16,197 nt of DNA, taken from the IMG/VR virus record IMGVR_UViG_3300006162_000592, one strand, 5' to 3'. Position numbers and translations under genes: made by a program. Source of the DNA: a virus. Shown here piece by piece: positions 11,642-13,123 of this stretch (position 1 is its first letter; each line of letters starts with the position of its first letter). The notes under the pieces were generated by a model. It had not been told where the DNA came from and did not search any database. It saw only the letters and a list, made by a program, of their open reading frames with translations.

Positions 11642-11992
11642 CTACCAGGTGATCTTCATTCCGCCGCTCTGGTACTCCTCCACAGCATAGCCTTCGTTGC
11701 GAAAGTGGTTCATCAGCATCTCGTGGATCGGCAGGTCGGCGTCCTTGACCCAGATGACCTCGTCTCCGTTGGGGTTCAGGTCAGACGGCGCGTAAGTGCC
11801 GTGGTGCCCCTTCGCTGCCGCTGTCTTGATGTAACCCTCAACCTGCGAGACCAGCGCGGAACCGCGCTTCTTCCAAAGCGCCTCAGCCTGCTTGGTCTTT
11901 TTGACGAGGGTTGCCCTGTATTCCATTTCGTGGTCACGTTGCAGCTTGGCGATGGCTCGCTTCGCCTTTTCCCGTGCCTCTGTTGCGTTCAT
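11642..11992 (-). CDS. hypothetical protein (116 aa)
   Basis: GAGGGGG lies before ATG 11992 (MNATEAREKAKRAIAKLQRDHEMEYRATLVKK...). There is a TAATG overlap with the PTH2 stop. The Arg-rich N-terminal extension in the track is discarded. Confidence 0.5.
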   Translation of the reverse strand: MNATEAREKAKRAIAKLQRDHEMEYRATLVKKTKQAEALWKKRGSALVSQVEGYIKTAAAKGHHGTYAPSDLNPNGDEVIWVKDADLPIHEMLMNHFRNEGYAVEEYQSGGMKITW

Positions 11993-12273
11993 TATTCCCC
12001 CTCTTCGCCGTCTTCTTCTTCCTCGTACCAGCATACCACGGTGTGGGAGCCAGCGGGAACCTCTGTGTAGCCCGCGTCGGTGACAACGTAGCCCTCCGGG
12101 TGCGCTTGGACGGCCTCATAGAACTTTTTGGTGGAGGCTTCCAGCACGACACAAGACCAGTGGTCTTGCGGGTCTTTCTTGTACAGCCCGATGCCCGCGT
12201 GGACACACTGCGCCGCGACCTTGCGTTCCGACATTCGCAGGTTCTTGTGGATGAGCATCTTGATCTTCTTCAT
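11992..12273 (-). CDS. pth2: peptidyl-tRNA hydrolase, PTH2 (archaeal/eukaryotic type) family (93 aa)
   Basis: MKKIKMLIHKNLRMSERKVAAQCVHAG...DAGYTEVPAGSHTVV matches the PTH2 core as I recall it (human PTRH2 [25 protein letters not shown] ... DAGRTQIAPGSQTVL). Confidence 0.7.
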   Translation of the reverse strand: MKKIKMLIHKNLRMSERKVAAQCVHAGIGLYKKDPQDHWSCVVLEASTKKFYEAVQAHPEGYVVTDAGYTEVPAGSHTVVCWYEEEEDGEEGE

Positions 12274-12302: not shown

Positions 12303-12399
12303 TGGTAGCGGACCTCGGAGTCGAACCGAGCCGGGCACCCCAATCTAGGGCGACATCACGGGTTTATAAGACCCGCCCGCACAACCAGTGCTGTCCGCT
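12303..12399 (-). tRNA. atypical long tRNA (97 nt with CCA); best anticodon loop CUUAUAA gives anticodon UAU, which would read AUA
   Basis: On the minus strand it has a perfect 7-bp acceptor stem AGCGGAC/GTCCGCT, discriminator A73 and an encoded CCA. The T-arm is canonical (CTCGG TTCGACT CCGAG). The anticodon arm CGGGT-CTTATAA-ACCCG has U33 and A37. The D region is short (GCAC TGGTT GTGC), and a 28-nt variable region contains a second hairpin CGCCC-TAGATTG-GGGTG. It does not fit class I or class II cleanly. Confidence 0.5.
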
Positions 12400-12403
12400 A
12401 ATC

Positions 12404-12492
12404 TGGTGCGAGCGACAGGATTTGAACCTGCACTCCCCCGTAGGGGAAGGAGGGTTTAAGTCTCCGGCGTCTGCCAATTCCGCCACGCTCGC
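12404..12492 (-). tRNA. tRNA-Leu (anticodon UAA, reads UUA/UUG)
   Basis: Acceptor GCGAGCG/CGCTCGC, A73 and CCA. D arm is GCG-GAATTGGCAGA-CGC (E. coli Leu-like). Anticodon loop is CTTAAAC. Long variable arm TTCCCCTACGGGGGAG. T loop is TTCAAAT. Confidence 0.85.
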
Positions 12493-12497
12493 AAACT

Positions 12498-12587
12498 TGG
12501 CGGAGACGGTGGGATTCGAACCCACGGTACCAGTTACGGTACACACGCTTTCCAAGCGTGCTCCTTAAGCCACTCGGACACATCTCC
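12498..12587 (-). tRNA. tRNA-Ser (anticodon GGA, reads UCC/UCU)
   Basis: Acceptor GGAGATG/CGTCTCC, G73 and CCA. D arm is TCC-GAGTGGCTTAA-GGA. Anticodon arm is CACGC-TTGGAAA-GCGTG. Long variable arm. T arm is TGGG-TTCGAAT-CCCA. Confidence 0.85.
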
Positions 12588-12592
12588 AAACT

Positions 12593-12684
12593 TGGCGGTG
12601 GGCGAGAGAGTCGAACTCCCAACGGGCCGTTAGACCCGTAACTGTTTTCAAGACAGCCGGACTTGCCAATGTACCAAGCCCACC
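12593..12684 (-). tRNA. tRNA-Ser (anticodon UGA, reads UCA/UCN)
   Basis: Acceptor GGTGGGC/GCCCACC, G73 and CCA. Anticodon arm is GCTGT-CTTGAAA-ACAGT. Long variable arm CGGGTCTAACGGCCCG. T loop is TTCGACT. Confidence 0.85.
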
Positions 12685-12796
12685 GAACTACTCGCAGGGA
12701 ACAAAGTGTCAAGGTGTCGCGGCGTCGAAGCCCCAAAGCCTTTCGGCTTTTCTATCCAGAAGTAACCTTGTCAAACACCGCTGCGATCTAAAATTT

Positions 12797-12888
12797 TGGC
12801 GGAGAGGACAGGAGTTGAACCTGCAACGGGCTTTTATACCCGTAGTCGTTTTCGAGACGACCGGACTTGCCAGTGTACCAACCTCTCC
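12797..12888 (-). tRNA. tRNA-Ser (anticodon CGA, reads UCG)
   Basis: Acceptor GGAGAGG/CCTCTCC, G73 and CCA. Anticodon arm is GTCGT-CTCGAAA-ACGAC. Long variable arm CGGGTATAAAAGCCCG. T loop is TTCAACT. Confidence 0.85.
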
Positions 12889-12889
12889 A

Positions 12890-12979
12890 TGGCGGAGAAT
12901 GAGGGATTCGAACCCCCGGTCCCCTTGCGGGGACTCAGGTTTAGCAAACCTGCGCGATCAGCCGCTCTGCCAATTCTCC
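12890..12979 (-). tRNA. tRNA-Ser (anticodon GCU, reads AGC/AGU)
   Basis: Acceptor GGAGAAT/ATTCTCC, G73 and CCA. Anticodon arm is CAGGT-TTGCTAA-ACCTG. Long variable arm GTCCCCGCAAGGGGAC. T arm is GGGGG-TTCGAAT-CCCTC. It is separated from the previous tRNA by 1 nt. Confidence 0.85.
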
Positions 12980-12984
12980 GTTAC

Positions 12985-13024
12985 CGCAAGACAACAAAAA
13001 AGCCGCCTGACTTCGGCGGCTGGT
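12985..13024 (-). terminator. intrinsic terminator between the leader ORF and the first tRNA
   Basis: Minus strand has a 7-bp G/C-rich stem AGCCGCC / GGCGGCU with loop GAAGUCA, followed by UUUUUUGUUGU. On the + strand the hairpin is preceded by an A-run, not followed by a T-run, so it is orientation-specific. Confidence 0.65.
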
Positions 13025-13051
13025 TGCGATCTCTGTGTTTGCGTCTATTGC

Positions 13052-13123
13052 TTACGCGCCCACACCTTCGCCCCAGCCCATTGCTGAGCTACTAGAGGAC
13101 GATAATGTGGATATGAATGCCAT
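13052..13123 (-). CDS. leaderless 23-codon leader peptide MAFISTLSSSSSSAMGWGEGVGA, rich in the codons decoded by the downstream tRNA array
   Basis: The ATG 13123..13121 lies 6 nt after the -10 hexamer. Codons are ATG GCA TTC ATA TCC ACA TTA TCG TCC TCT AGT AGC TCA GCA ATG GGC TGG GGC GAA GGT GTG GGC GCG TAA. That is ATA, TTA and all six Ser codons consecutively, each once, plus an extra TCC. It is below the track's 60-aa cutoff. Confidence 0.6.
   Translation of the reverse strand: MAFISTLSSSSSSAMGWGEGVGA

What the first reader, a model, noticed from the sequence alone, without database searches (positions are those of the whole stretch)
12404..12979. Complete set of serine isoacceptors (GCU, CGA, UGA, GGA) plus tRNA-Leu(UAA) in one tight array
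Four class II tRNA-Ser genes together cover all six Ser codons, and a bldA-like Leu(UAA) sits with them, packed 1-5 nt apart. One 112-nt spacer splits the array into 2+4. A phage or mobile element that brings every Ser decoder, not just the rare-codon ones, is unusual. Supplementing rare codons in a high-GC host would explain UGA, UAA and UAU, but Ser-GGA and Ser-GCU read the element's own preferred codons TCC and AGC. One alternative is independence from, or replacement of, host tRNA-Ser. That would matter if the host deploys anticodon nucleases or tRNA-depleting defences against Ser tRNAs, by analogy with phage tRNAs that offset retron, PARIS or PrrC tRNA cleavage.
Basis: partly seen in the sequence, partly recalled or inferred. 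Interest (0 to 1): 0.6.

Follow-up and report, generated by a model that had tools for sequence, protein, structure and literature searches.

The report
Serine tRNA block of a huge phage
Four serine tRNA genes, one leucine tRNA gene and a sixth odd tRNA gene form a conserved block in a lineage of phage-like elements of roughly 440 kb known only from metagenomes; this lineage carries equally complete tRNA sets for other amino acids, so the full serine set looks like part of a general translation kit, not a serine-specific trick.

Summary
Five class II tRNA genes lie on the minus strand: Ser-GCU, Ser-CGA, Ser-UGA, Ser-GGA and Leu-UAA. They sit 1-5 nt apart, with one 112-nt spacer.

The block, followed by a PTH2-type peptidyl-tRNA hydrolase gene, is conserved in at least seven related metagenomic lineages. 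These include contigs of 436-455 kb. Orthologues group by anticodon although their sequences are only 71-85% identical.

The same lineage has equally complete sets elsewhere. A relative whose vault-protein gene is 94% identical carries 15 more tRNAs about 5 kb beyond the window's left end, including Arg CCG/GCG/UCG/ACG/CCU and Lys CUU/UUU. Other relatives add Thr GGU/CGU/UGU and Gln CUG/UUG.

The complete serine set is therefore one amino-acid-sorted block of a bacterial-style tRNA complement of a huge phage, which is a known phenomenon. It is not evidence of a serine-directed counter-defence.

The five anticodon loops have the standard 7-nt layout, no tRNA-repair genes were found, and the host is unknown.

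The most unusual item is the UAU tRNA family, which is widespread in viral metagenome contigs and of unresolved amino-acid identity.

The parts
12890..12979 (-). tRNA-Ser(GCU). First gene of the block. Class II, G73, CCA encoded, anticodon loop UUGCUAA.
   Evidence: ARAGORN; Rfam tRNA 50.2 bits; 75% identical to the orthologue in L035.
12797..12888 (-). tRNA-Ser(CGA). Class II, G73, CCA, loop CUCGAAA. Has an atypical D arm (GGUACACUGGCAAGUCC) that it shares with Ser(UGA).
   Evidence: ARAGORN; Rfam tRNA 31.2 bits and tRNA-Sec model 43.6 bits; 85% identical to L035 Ser(CGA).
12685..12796 (-). 112-nt spacer that splits the array into 2+4. It is a conserved element of unknown function. Its invariant ends, GAUCGCAGCGGUGUU and UUGUUCCCUGCGA, can pair with each other.
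   Evidence: Alignments (conserved in L109, L106, L105 and L001). No Rfam family match with E below 1 (best: CRISPR-DR60, 19.9 bits, E 1.1). Folding z-score only -0.93. No covariation in the terminal stem.
12593..12684 (-). tRNA-Ser(UGA). Class II, G73, CCA, loop CUUGAAA.
   Evidence: ARAGORN; best Rfam hit is the tRNA-Sec model at 50.9 bits, but the anticodon is UGA; 76% identical to L035 Ser(UGA).
12498..12587 (-). tRNA-Ser(GGA). Class II, G73, CCA, loop UUGGAAA.
   Evidence: ARAGORN; Rfam tRNA 55.5 bits.
12404..12492 (-). tRNA-Leu(UAA). Class II, A73, CCA, loop CUUAAAC with an A31-C39 mismatch.
   Evidence: ARAGORN; Rfam tRNA 47.2 bits.
12303..12399 (-). Non-canonical class II tRNA with anticodon UAU, lying outside the finding's coordinates. 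It has a 7-bp acceptor stem, a 5-bp T stem, A73-CCA and an invariant 4-bp D stem (GCAC/GUGC) with a 4-5-nt loop. A single nucleotide, A8, links the acceptor and D stems. The variable arm is about 27 nt and its loop holds an invariant GAU. The amino-acid identity is unresolved.
   Evidence: Rfam tRNA-Sec model 30.5 bits, below threshold. Family model R1 scores it 82.9 bits, E 7e-17. Covariation on 20 homologues: 95.5% of cells paired, 17 of 27 pairs with changes on both sides, 0 of 500 shuffles as high. The motif occurs in 46 IMG/VR contigs.
11992..12273 (-). Short (93 aa) PTH2-type peptidyl-tRNA hydrolase gene. It starts 29 nt after the last tRNA.
   Evidence: Pfam PF01981, 8.3e-9, 36.1 bits against a cutoff of 23. 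PDB 1q7s (human Bit1/PTH2), E 3.4e-8, with the KVAAQC.HAA and DAG.T motifs aligned. It lies next to or inside the same tRNA block in L001 and L105-L109.
13001..13021 (-). Intrinsic-terminator-like hairpin (7 bp, 6 of them GC, followed by a T run). It ends 21 nt upstream of Ser(GCU).
   Evidence: A similar hairpin with a T run lies directly before Ser(GCU) in L001 and L109.
13130..13158 (-). Sigma-70-like promoter match (TTGACA, 17 nt, TACTAT; 10 of 12 positions), about 110 nt upstream of the terminator. Whether it drives the tRNA block is not known.
   Evidence: 3 matches in the region against 0.5 expected.

Best explanation
The five genes are intact, bacterial-type class II tRNAs. Together with the sixth, UAU tRNA they form a conserved 'long-variable-arm' block in a lineage of very large, phage-like elements of about 440-455 kb. 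Relatives are listed as viral genomes in IMG/VR and are known only from metagenomes.

The block is one of several tRNA blocks sorted by amino acid. Together these give the lineage a bacterial-style complement with G34, U34 and C34 decoders for each codon family. In a genome with 68% GC at third codon positions, full coverage of serine needs exactly these four anticodons.

The likely mechanism is as follows. The tRNAs are transcribed along with the co-directional gene train, cut out by host RNase P and 3'-end processing enzymes, and charged by host SerRS and LeuRS. Both enzymes ignore the anticodon. The tRNAs then supply the phage's own codon demand, preferred codons (AGC, TCC) and rare ones (UCA, UCG, UUA, AUA) alike, so that translation does not depend on the host tRNA pool. 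The adjacent PTH2 hydrolase would recycle tRNAs from dropped peptidyl-tRNA.

Shown: the genes, their conservation, the complete sets for other amino acids in relatives, and the codon usage. Inferred: expression, charging, and the selective reason for carrying the set. Possible reasons are host tRNA decline, a codon mismatch with the host, or general protection against tRNA-depleting defences.
For: - The genes are real and their identity elements are intact.
- The same block is present in relatives: Ser GCU/CGA/GGA/UGA + Leu UAA + UAU tRNA, with the PTH2 gene inside or just after the block. It occurs in L001/L065, L105, L106 and L109. L107, on a 438-kb contig, also has it. L108 holds only the 3' part (Leu-UAA, UAU tRNA, PTH2) at the start of a 3-kb contig.
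- L035 (455-kb contig) and L039 have the six tRNAs but no PTH2 match in the few kb held.
- The UAU member is confirmed in L001, L065 and L105-L109 by model R1.
- Orthologues pair by anticodon at 71-85% identity, so the set is older than these lineages and has been maintained.
- Other complete sets exist in the same lineage. L100, whose vault-protein gene is 94% identical, has 15 tRNAs 5.4-9.2 kb beyond that gene: Trp, His, Arg CCG/GCG/UCG/ACG/CCU, Asn x3, Lys CUU x2 and UUU x2, Gln CUG. L001, L062, L069 and L078 are similar. L002 has Thr GGU/CGU/UGU, Ile GAU and Gln UUG.
- Genome scale: the vault-protein gene (80% identical) sits on a 436-kb contig and on an 894-kb contig that is about twice 447 kb.
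- Translation-related neighbours: PTH2 and a HisRS-like fragment next to tRNA-His.
- Codon usage: AGC 28% and TCC 26% of Ser codons. The strongly biased vault-protein gene uses 15 AGC and 14 TCC among 34 Ser codons.
- Huge phages with up to 67 tRNAs that differ from host tRNAs are documented (PMC7162821).
Against: - The window's own genome was not recovered beyond the window. L099, the same phage, ends 600 nt after the vault-protein gene. Further tRNA blocks in this exact genome are therefore inferred from a relative whose vault-protein gene is 94% identical.
- No capsid or terminase gene was seen in the stretches I could read. The phage assignment rests on IMG/VR listing of relatives and a few PHROG matches.
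- A terminator-like hairpin sits 21 nt before the first tRNA and no convincing promoter for the block was found.
- Expression and charging are untested.
- Two PTH2 relatives, L007 and L008, have no tRNA within 10 kb, so the PTH2-tRNA link is not universal.
- Most other tRNA-rich viral arrays that I scanned carry only Ser UGA + GCU. The four-member set is a trait of this clade, and its specific cause is not proven.
Confidence: 0.72

Rival explanations
1. Counter-defence specific to serine or to class II tRNAs. The block would replace host tRNA-Ser (and Leu) that a host nuclease or nucleotidyltransferase inactivates during infection.
For: - The block holds only long-variable-arm tRNAs, is tightly packed and is conserved.
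- Toxins aimed at tRNA-Ser exist. M. tuberculosis VapCs cut at GA within Ser NGA anticodons (as reported in PMC10264068).
- MenT3, a nucleotidyltransferase toxin, prefers tRNA-Ser 3' ends (PMC11541572). A separate preprint (10.64898/2026.01.19.700257) describes the abortive-infection nucleotidyltransferase toxin AbiEii; calling the two toxins relatives is my recollection.
- Human SLFN11 cleaves type II tRNAs (cited in PMC12330615).
- Phage tRNAs do neutralise PARIS and retron tRNases (PMC11464382, PMC11555353).
Against: - Relatives have equally complete sets for Arg, Lys, Thr and Gln.
- The five anticodon loops have the standard 7-nt layout with U33 and A37.
- Anticodon-cutting enzymes cannot be escaped while the anticodon is kept, and mycobacteriophages avoid Ser NGA tRNAs (PMC10264068).
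- The one characterised bacterial Schlafen cuts mainly tRNA-Lys(UUU) (PMC12330615).
- The window has no RNA ligase, no polynucleotide kinase and no recognisable defence or anti-defence gene.
- The host and its defences are unknown.
Confidence: 0.1
2. Plain codon compensation. The tRNAs only top up decoders that are scarce in the host relative to the phage's codon usage.
For: UCA, UCG, UUA and AUA are minor codons in the window. They cluster in the lower-GC genes at 13338-16032: 7 of 14 TTA and 8 of 30 ATA. A GC-rich host would have few such tRNAs (general knowledge).
Against: Ser GCU and GGA read the phage's most used Ser codons. Relatives also carry decoders for abundant codons such as CGC (Arg GCG/ACG) and AAG (Lys CUU). 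In mycobacteriophages, codon frequency did not differ between codons with and without a phage tRNA (PMC10264068). Host codon usage is unknown.
Confidence: 0.12
3. The block is a passively carried or decaying remnant of captured bacterial tRNA genes and has no role.
For: tRNA sequences diverge quickly between relatives, to 71-85% identity and lower against L001. One relative's UAU copy (L001) has a weak T stem.
Against: All stems, discriminator bases and CCA ends are intact. The anticodon set and gene order are kept across at least seven lineages while the sequences drift. Compensatory changes occur throughout the UAU family.
Confidence: 0.03

Closest known systems
tRNA-rich huge phages (Al-Shayeb et al. 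2020, PMC7162821)
   Same: - Relatives sit on contigs of 436-455 kb.
- There are many tRNAs, with 21 in about 27 kb when the window and L100 are combined.
- Translation-related genes are present (PTH2, a HisRS-like fragment).
- The tRNAs differ from typical bacterial ones.
   Different: - The window holds only 16 kb, so membership is inferred through relatives.
- The tRNAs are sorted into amino-acid-specific, isoacceptor-complete blocks scattered among genes. I did not find this layout described in the papers I read.
- No hallmark virion gene was seen in the stretches available.
Phage tRNAs that offset tRNA-targeting defences (van den Berg et al. 2023, PMC10264068; T5 tRNAs against PARIS and retron Ec78, PMC11464382, PMC11555353)
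   Same: These are phage-borne copies of tRNAs that could keep translation going if host tRNAs are destroyed.
   Different: Those cases involve particular target tRNAs that carry anticodon-loop changes, or avoidance of tRNAs that cannot be protected (Ser NGA). Here all isoacceptors of several amino acids are present, and the five anticodon loops have the standard layout.
Large tRNA clusters of cultured phages, such as mycobacteriophage cluster C1 (about 33 tRNAs, PMC10264068), and the 20-28-gene arrays in IMG/VR contigs seen here
   Same: Tightly packed tRNA arrays.
   Different: Those arrays mostly carry one U34 or G34 tRNA per amino acid. For Ser this is UGA + GCU in 19 of the 31 partial loci with any Ser tRNA (a further 10 show a single Ser anticodon, one shows GGA + GCU), against two loci with all four anticodons. 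The window's clade carries all four.
For the sixth gene: (8/4) allo-tRNA-UAU (Mukai et al., PMC5389517) and nematode nev-tRNA-Ile(UAU) (PMC3333845, PMC4300185)
   Same: A long variable arm combined with the non-Ser, non-Leu anticodon UAU, and a short D loop that resembles tRNA-Sec. nev-tRNA(UAU) is charged with leucine in vitro because LeuRS ignores the anticodon.
   Different: The window family has a 7/5 acceptor/T arrangement, proven by covariation of the fifth T-stem pair, not 8/4 or 9/3. It has A73, not G73 or U73. It sits in phage tRNA arrays, not in bacterial toxin-antitoxin loci or nematode genomes. Its charging is untested.

Membership tests
Bacterial-type tRNA-Ser (SerRS substrates) | Cloverleaf detected by independent tRNA models | tested here: met
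   ARAGORN. Rfam tRNA or tRNA-Sec models at 31-55 bits.
Bacterial-type tRNA-Ser (SerRS substrates) | [quoted passage not shown] These are SerRS identity elements, as stated in PMC5389517 and PMC7609411. | tested here: met
   All four genes have 16-20-nt variable arms with a 5-6-bp stem, then G73 and CCA (sequences).
Bacterial-type tRNA-Ser (SerRS substrates) | Actually charged with serine | not testable with these tools
   Needs an aminoacylation assay or tRNA-seq with charging analysis.
tRNA complement of a huge phage (>200 kb, tens of tRNAs) | Genome larger than 200 kb | tested here: inconclusive
   Met for relatives: 436-kb, 438-kb and 455-kb contigs, and an 894-kb contig that is about twice 447 kb. 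The window's own genome was not recovered.
tRNA complement of a huge phage (>200 kb, tens of tRNAs) | Many tRNAs covering many amino acids, not a single family | tested here: met
   L100 (vault-protein gene 94% identical) has 15 more tRNAs for Trp, His, Arg, Asn, Lys and Gln. L001 has 20 ARAGORN-called tRNAs, plus the UAU tRNA that ARAGORN misses (found by blastn and by R1), in 22 kb. L002 has Thr, Ile and Gln.
tRNA complement of a huge phage (>200 kb, tens of tRNAs) | Viral hallmark genes on the same molecule | tested here: inconclusive
   Relatives are IMG/VR viral contigs. PHROG matches found were phrog_10079, DNA ligase and helicase. No capsid or terminase gene lay within the regions I could read.
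Phage tRNAs that evade tRNA-targeting defences | Anticodon-loop differences from the host's tRNA at nuclease determinants | not testable with these tools
   The host is unknown. No relative occurs in 185,579 species genomes. The loops themselves have the standard 7-nt layout with U33 and A37.
Phage tRNAs that evade tRNA-targeting defences | Restricted to the tRNA species that the defence attacks | tested here: not met
   Relatives have isoacceptor-complete sets for Arg, Lys, Thr and Gln as well.
Phage tRNAs that evade tRNA-targeting defences | Linked tRNA repair or anti-defence genes (for example RNA ligase and polynucleotide kinase, as in T4) | tested here: not met
   Pfam scans of the window ORFs found none; PHROG scans covered the ten largest. 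Only PTH2 is tRNA-related.
allo-tRNA (for the UAU gene at 12303-12399) | 8/4 or 9/3 acceptor/T-stem arrangement | tested here: not met
   The fifth T-stem pair (alignment columns 70:86) covaries as UA, AU, CG and GC in 19 of 20 sequences, while A8 is invariant. The arrangement is therefore 7/5.
allo-tRNA (for the UAU gene at 12303-12399) | G73 or U73 discriminator (serine identity) | tested here: not met
   A73 is invariant in the 20 aligned homologues.
nev-tRNA-like mischarging tRNA (for the UAU gene) | Class II body with a non-Leu, non-Ser anticodon | tested here: met
   Variable arm of about 27 nt and invariant anticodon loop CUUAUAA.
nev-tRNA-like mischarging tRNA (for the UAU gene) | Charged with leucine despite the Ile anticodon | not testable with these tools
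   Only 11 ATA codons occur in 21 vault-protein genes. They align with I, V and L columns, which cannot separate Ile from Leu.

The most novel reading that the evidence does not exclude
The block could be a dedicated long-variable-arm module. Its sixth member, a covariation-supported class II tRNA with anticodon UAU and A73, occurs in at least 46 viral contigs and has no match in 50,697 deposited phage genome records. If host LeuRS charges it, as happens with nematode nev-tRNA(UAU), many environmental phages would read AUA partly as leucine. If IleRS charges it, it would be the first class II tRNA-Ile that I know of. Alternatively, the whole class II block could offset an undescribed bacterial tRNase or nucleotidyltransferase that recognises long variable arms.
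Probability: 0.1. Interest if true: 0.75.

Novelty: new member of a known kind. Interest (0 to 1): 0.35.

Why it matters
The finding itself is a well-documented example of a huge phage lineage with a bacterial-style tRNA complement. The complement is complete at the isoacceptor level and laid out in blocks sorted by amino acid. This argues that these phages aim at full decoding autonomy, not at patching rare codons or countering one nuclease. It also gives a concrete, conserved module to test: the Ser x4 + Leu-UAA + UAU tRNA block with the PTH2 gene.

The more valuable by-product is the UAU tRNA family. It is a conserved, atypical class II tRNA that standard tools call inconsistently. ARAGORN misses many copies and labels others tRNA-Ile. 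Its amino-acid identity bears directly on whether some phages decode AUA ambiguously.

Tried and rejected
- **Whole-window search.** A megablast of the whole window against 50,697 phage records found no match. A distant blastn of the array found only generic tRNA-Ser similarity.
- **Source contig.** Exact-pattern searches for the window's own contig in the viral, metagenome and genome collections found nothing. An exact look-up of the PTH2 protein found nothing. L099 is the same phage but ends 600 nt past the vault-protein gene.
- **Host.** The vault-protein gene has no relative in 185,579 species genomes. Cluster members carry no organism names.
- **8/4 (allo-tRNA) fold.** I rejected it for the UAU gene and the window's Ser genes. 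Covariation of the fifth T-stem pair (UAU gene) and mismatches at the would-be eighth acceptor pair (Ser genes, sequences) rule it out.
- **Amino acid at ATA codons.** Reading it from vault-protein alignments was inconclusive. The window gene has no ATA codon, and there are only 11 across 21 genes.
- **The 112-nt spacer.** The consensus fold shows a terminal stem that is invariant, so there is no covariation evidence. There was no Rfam match with E below 1 and no acceptable sigma-70 spacing.
- **The + strand ORF 33-2015 (660 aa).** I rejected it as a shadow of the minus-strand vault-protein gene.
- **Literature.** The supplement of Mukai et al. is not held, so I could not check whether the UAU family is among their sequences. 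Searches found no description of a phage class II tRNA(UAU).
Full report
**Observation**

ARAGORN finds five tRNA genes in the window, all on the minus strand:
- Leu(UAA) 12404-12492
- Ser(GGA) 12498-12587
- Ser(UGA) 12593-12684
- Ser(CGA) 12797-12888
- Ser(GCU) 12890-12979

Rfam covariance models recover the same five (E 4.5e-11 to 2.9e-7 in the local search). The gaps between them are 5, 5, 112 and 1 nt.

Every gene has a 7-bp acceptor stem, a 5-bp T stem, a long variable arm and an encoded CCA. The Ser genes have G73 and the Leu gene has A73. Each anticodon loop is the standard 7 nt with U33 and A37. Ser(UGA) and Ser(CGA) share an atypical D arm, which is why they score better on the tRNA-Sec model. 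Their anticodons are serine anticodons.

A model built from 15 homologues without the window copy scores it 82.9 bits, E 7e-17. The other class II tRNAs of the window reach at most 24 bits on that model.

**Surroundings**

All genes in the window are on the minus strand. The long + strand ORF 33-2015 is a shadow of a minus-strand gene that runs off the left end. That gene encodes a homologue of the major vault protein (Pfam MVP_shoulder 6e-24).

A 93-aa PTH2-type peptidyl-tRNA hydrolase gene starts 29 nt after the last tRNA (Pfam 8.3e-9; human Bit1/PTH2 structure 1q7s, E 3.4e-8, with the family motifs aligned). The rest of the window is mostly small ORFs with no recognisable family. There is no RNA ligase, no polynucleotide kinase and no recognisable defence gene.

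A terminator-like hairpin ends 21 nt before Ser(GCU). A sigma-70-like promoter match lies about 110 nt further upstream. No promoter for the block itself was established.

**Relatives**

Nothing similar exists among 50,697 deposited phage genomes. The vault-protein gene finds relatives in IMG/VR and in JGI, ENA and Logan metagenome assemblies:
- one at 100% identity on a 13-kb contig (L099, the same phage)
- one at 94% identity on a 37-kb contig (L100)
- one at 80% identity on a 436-kb contig and on an 894-kb contig that is about twice 447 kb, so probably a concatemer

PTH2 relatives sit on contigs of 91, 121 and 438 kb. No relative occurs in 185,579 bacterial and archaeal species genomes. The element is therefore probably not a prophage of a sequenced organism, and the host remains unknown.

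Some neighbouring genes in relatives match phage protein families. I saw no capsid or terminase gene in the stretches available.

**The block is conserved**

The series Ser GCU, Ser CGA/GGA/UGA (order varies), Leu UAA, UAU tRNA recurs across the clade. The PTH2 gene lies inside or just after the block in L001, L105-L107 and L109. The loci are:
- L001/L065
- L105, L106, L107 and L109; L108 holds only the 3' part (Leu-UAA, UAU tRNA, PTH2) at the start of a 3-kb contig
- L035 (455-kb contig) and L039, where no PTH2 match was found in the 4.9 and 7.9 kb held

Model R1 confirms the UAU member in L001, L065 and L105-L109.

Between the window and L035, orthologues pair by anticodon: CGA 85%, UGA 76%, GCU 75%, GGA 71% and UAU 72%. 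The four-anticodon set therefore predates these lineages and has been kept while the sequences drifted. That pattern argues for function.

**Serine is not special**

In L100, 5.4-9.2 kb beyond the vault-protein gene, there are 15 more tRNAs. That position corresponds to just outside the window's left end. The 15 are:
- Trp and His
- Arg CCG, GCG, UCG, ACG and CCU
- Asn x3
- Lys CUU x2 and UUU x2
- Gln CUG

L001, L062, L069 and L078 show the same block, and L001 adds Arg UCU and Phe. L002 has Thr GGU/CGU/UGU, Ile GAU and Gln UUG. A HisRS-like fragment lies next to tRNA-His.

The lineage thus carries G34, U34 and C34 decoders for several codon families, sorted by amino acid. In contrast, most other tRNA-rich viral arrays scanned here carry only Ser UGA + GCU. 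That pair appears in 19 of the 31 partial loci with any Ser tRNA, ten more show a single Ser anticodon and one shows GGA + GCU; only two loci have all four anticodons.

**Codon usage**

In 36 window CDSs (4889 codons, GC3 0.685), the serine codons are used as follows:

| Codon | Share of Ser codons |
|---|---|
| AGC | 28% |
| TCC | 26% |
| TCT | 13% |
| TCG | 13% |
| AGT | 11% |
| TCA | 9% |

TTA is 4% of Leu codons and ATA is 14% of Ile codons. The vault-protein gene, the most biased gene, uses 15 AGC and 14 TCC among 34 Ser codons and has no ATA, TTA or AGR codon.

Two of the four Ser tRNAs read the element's favourite codons, so rare-codon patching alone does not explain the set.

**Interpretation**

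The best reading is that this is one block of a near-complete tRNA complement of a huge phage. Complements of up to 67 tRNAs per genome, with sequences distinct from host tRNAs, have been described (PMC7162821). Such a complement makes phage translation independent of the host tRNA supply.

SerRS and LeuRS do not read the anticodon. This is stated for SerRS in PMC7609411; for bacterial LeuRS it is my own knowledge. Host enzymes could therefore charge all of these tRNAs.

The reason for autonomy cannot be decided here. Candidates are host tRNA decline, a codon mismatch with the host, or general protection against tRNA-depleting immunity.

The serine-specific counter-defence reading is weakened on four counts:
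- relatives have complete sets for other amino acids
- the five anticodon loops have the standard layout
- the window has no tRNA-repair genes
- mycobacteriophages exposed to VapCs that cut Ser NGA anticodons avoid those tRNAs (PMC10264068)

It is not excluded, because toxins aimed at tRNA-Ser exist (VapC; MenT3, PMC11541572) and the host is unknown.

**The sixth gene**

The motif AGCACUGG-N(1-2)-GUGCGG-N6-CUUAUAAAC occurs in 46 IMG/VR contigs of up to 455 kb. Where the fetched stretch showed other tRNAs (42 of the 45 loci scanned), the motif lies within or beside a tRNA cluster. It is often next to Ser GCU or Ser UGA. It has no match in deposited phage genomes.

On 20 homologues the cloverleaf is 95.5% paired. 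Of the 27 pairs, 17 show changes on both sides, and none of 500 shuffles reached this.

Its features are:
- a 7/5 acceptor/T arrangement
- invariant A73 and A8
- an invariant D stem GCAC/GUGC with a 4-5-nt loop
- a 5-bp anticodon stem plus a 26:44-type pair, with position 31:39 usually mismatched
- an invariant loop CUUAUAA
- a variable arm of about 27 nt whose loop holds an invariant GAU

It fails two defining features of allo-tRNAs: the 8/4 or 9/3 arrangement and a G73 or U73 discriminator (PMC5389517). It resembles nematode nev-tRNA(UAU), which is charged with leucine in vitro (PMC3333845). Whether it carries Ile or Leu cannot be told from sequence, and the few ATA codons in conserved genes align with I, V and L columns.

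**Verdict**

The emphasis on serine is not supported. I classify the finding as a new member of a known kind, with a side observation, the class II tRNA(UAU) family, that deserves its own follow-up.

Noticed in passing
window 12303-12399 (-): Non-canonical class II tRNA with anticodon UAU and A73. It belongs to a family found in 46 IMG/VR contigs and has no match in deposited phage genomes. ARAGORN misses many copies and labels others tRNA-Ile(tat). Its amino-acid identity (Ile or Leu) is unresolved.
   Followed up: yes
window 3-1847 (-), running off the left end: N-terminal 615 aa of an 816-aa major vault protein homologue. It is conserved across this huge-phage clade, with more than 6600 homologues at E<=1e-10, and has extreme codon bias, which suggests high expression. 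I found no paper describing vault-protein homologues in phages.
   Followed up: partly
window 12685-12796 (-): The 112-nt spacer is a conserved element, also present in L109, L106, L105 and L001. Its invariant ends (GAUCGCAGCGGUGUU and UUGUUCCCUGCGA) can pair, and its middle is variable. The L105 copy contains an inserted T-arm-like GGUUCGAUUCC. In L001 an ORF of 149 aa with no Pfam match lies just upstream. Function unknown.
   Followed up: partly
window 13001-13158 (-): A sigma-70-like promoter match (10 of 12 positions) is followed about 110 nt later by a strong terminator hairpin. The hairpin ends only 21 nt before the first tRNA. This could be a small RNA or an attenuator. A hairpin with a T run directly before Ser(GCU) also occurs in L001 and L109.
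   Followed up: no
L109 1706-1785; also L106 4262-4341 and L108 92-171: Relatives carry an extra 80-nt tRNA-like gene between Ser(UGA) and Leu(UAA). It has an 8-bp acceptor stem, a T arm and CCA, but in place of the anticodon arm there is a 6-bp hairpin closed by a UUCG tetraloop, so it has no anticodon. It is absent from the window.
   Followed up: no
L001 5461-5549: The Ser(CGA) gene of this relative folds with an 8-bp acceptor stem and a 4-bp T stem (8/4). This matches the phage tRNA-Ser type reported by Mukai et al. The window's Ser genes are 7/5.
   Followed up: partly
L035 3336-3413: In the relative on the 455-kb contig, the Leu(UAA) gene is only 78 nt and has a short variable loop. It is a class I-like tRNA-Leu.
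   Followed up: no
L100 12112-12645; L101 19228-19701: A HisRS-like fragment of 157-177 aa (PF13393) lies next to tRNA-His, and an RlaP nucleotidyltransferase gene lies directly after the vault-protein gene. The region corresponds to just beyond the window's left end.
   Followed up: no
window 13338-14483 and 14480-15430 (-): Two adjacent proteins (381 and 316 aa) are built of repeats with a W/K/P/G-rich motif. They give weak hits to the 'integrase repeat unit' (PF14882). These genes have lower GC (0.51-0.52) and, together with the next gene at 15415-16032, hold half of the window's TTA codons (7 of 14).
   Followed up: no
L101 (contig Ga0374055_0000025, 894,233 bp): The 894-kb contig appears to be a head-to-tail double copy of a genome of about 447 kb. 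The vault-protein gene is at 697,499, against 250,467 on the 436-kb contig of another sample.
   Followed up: partly
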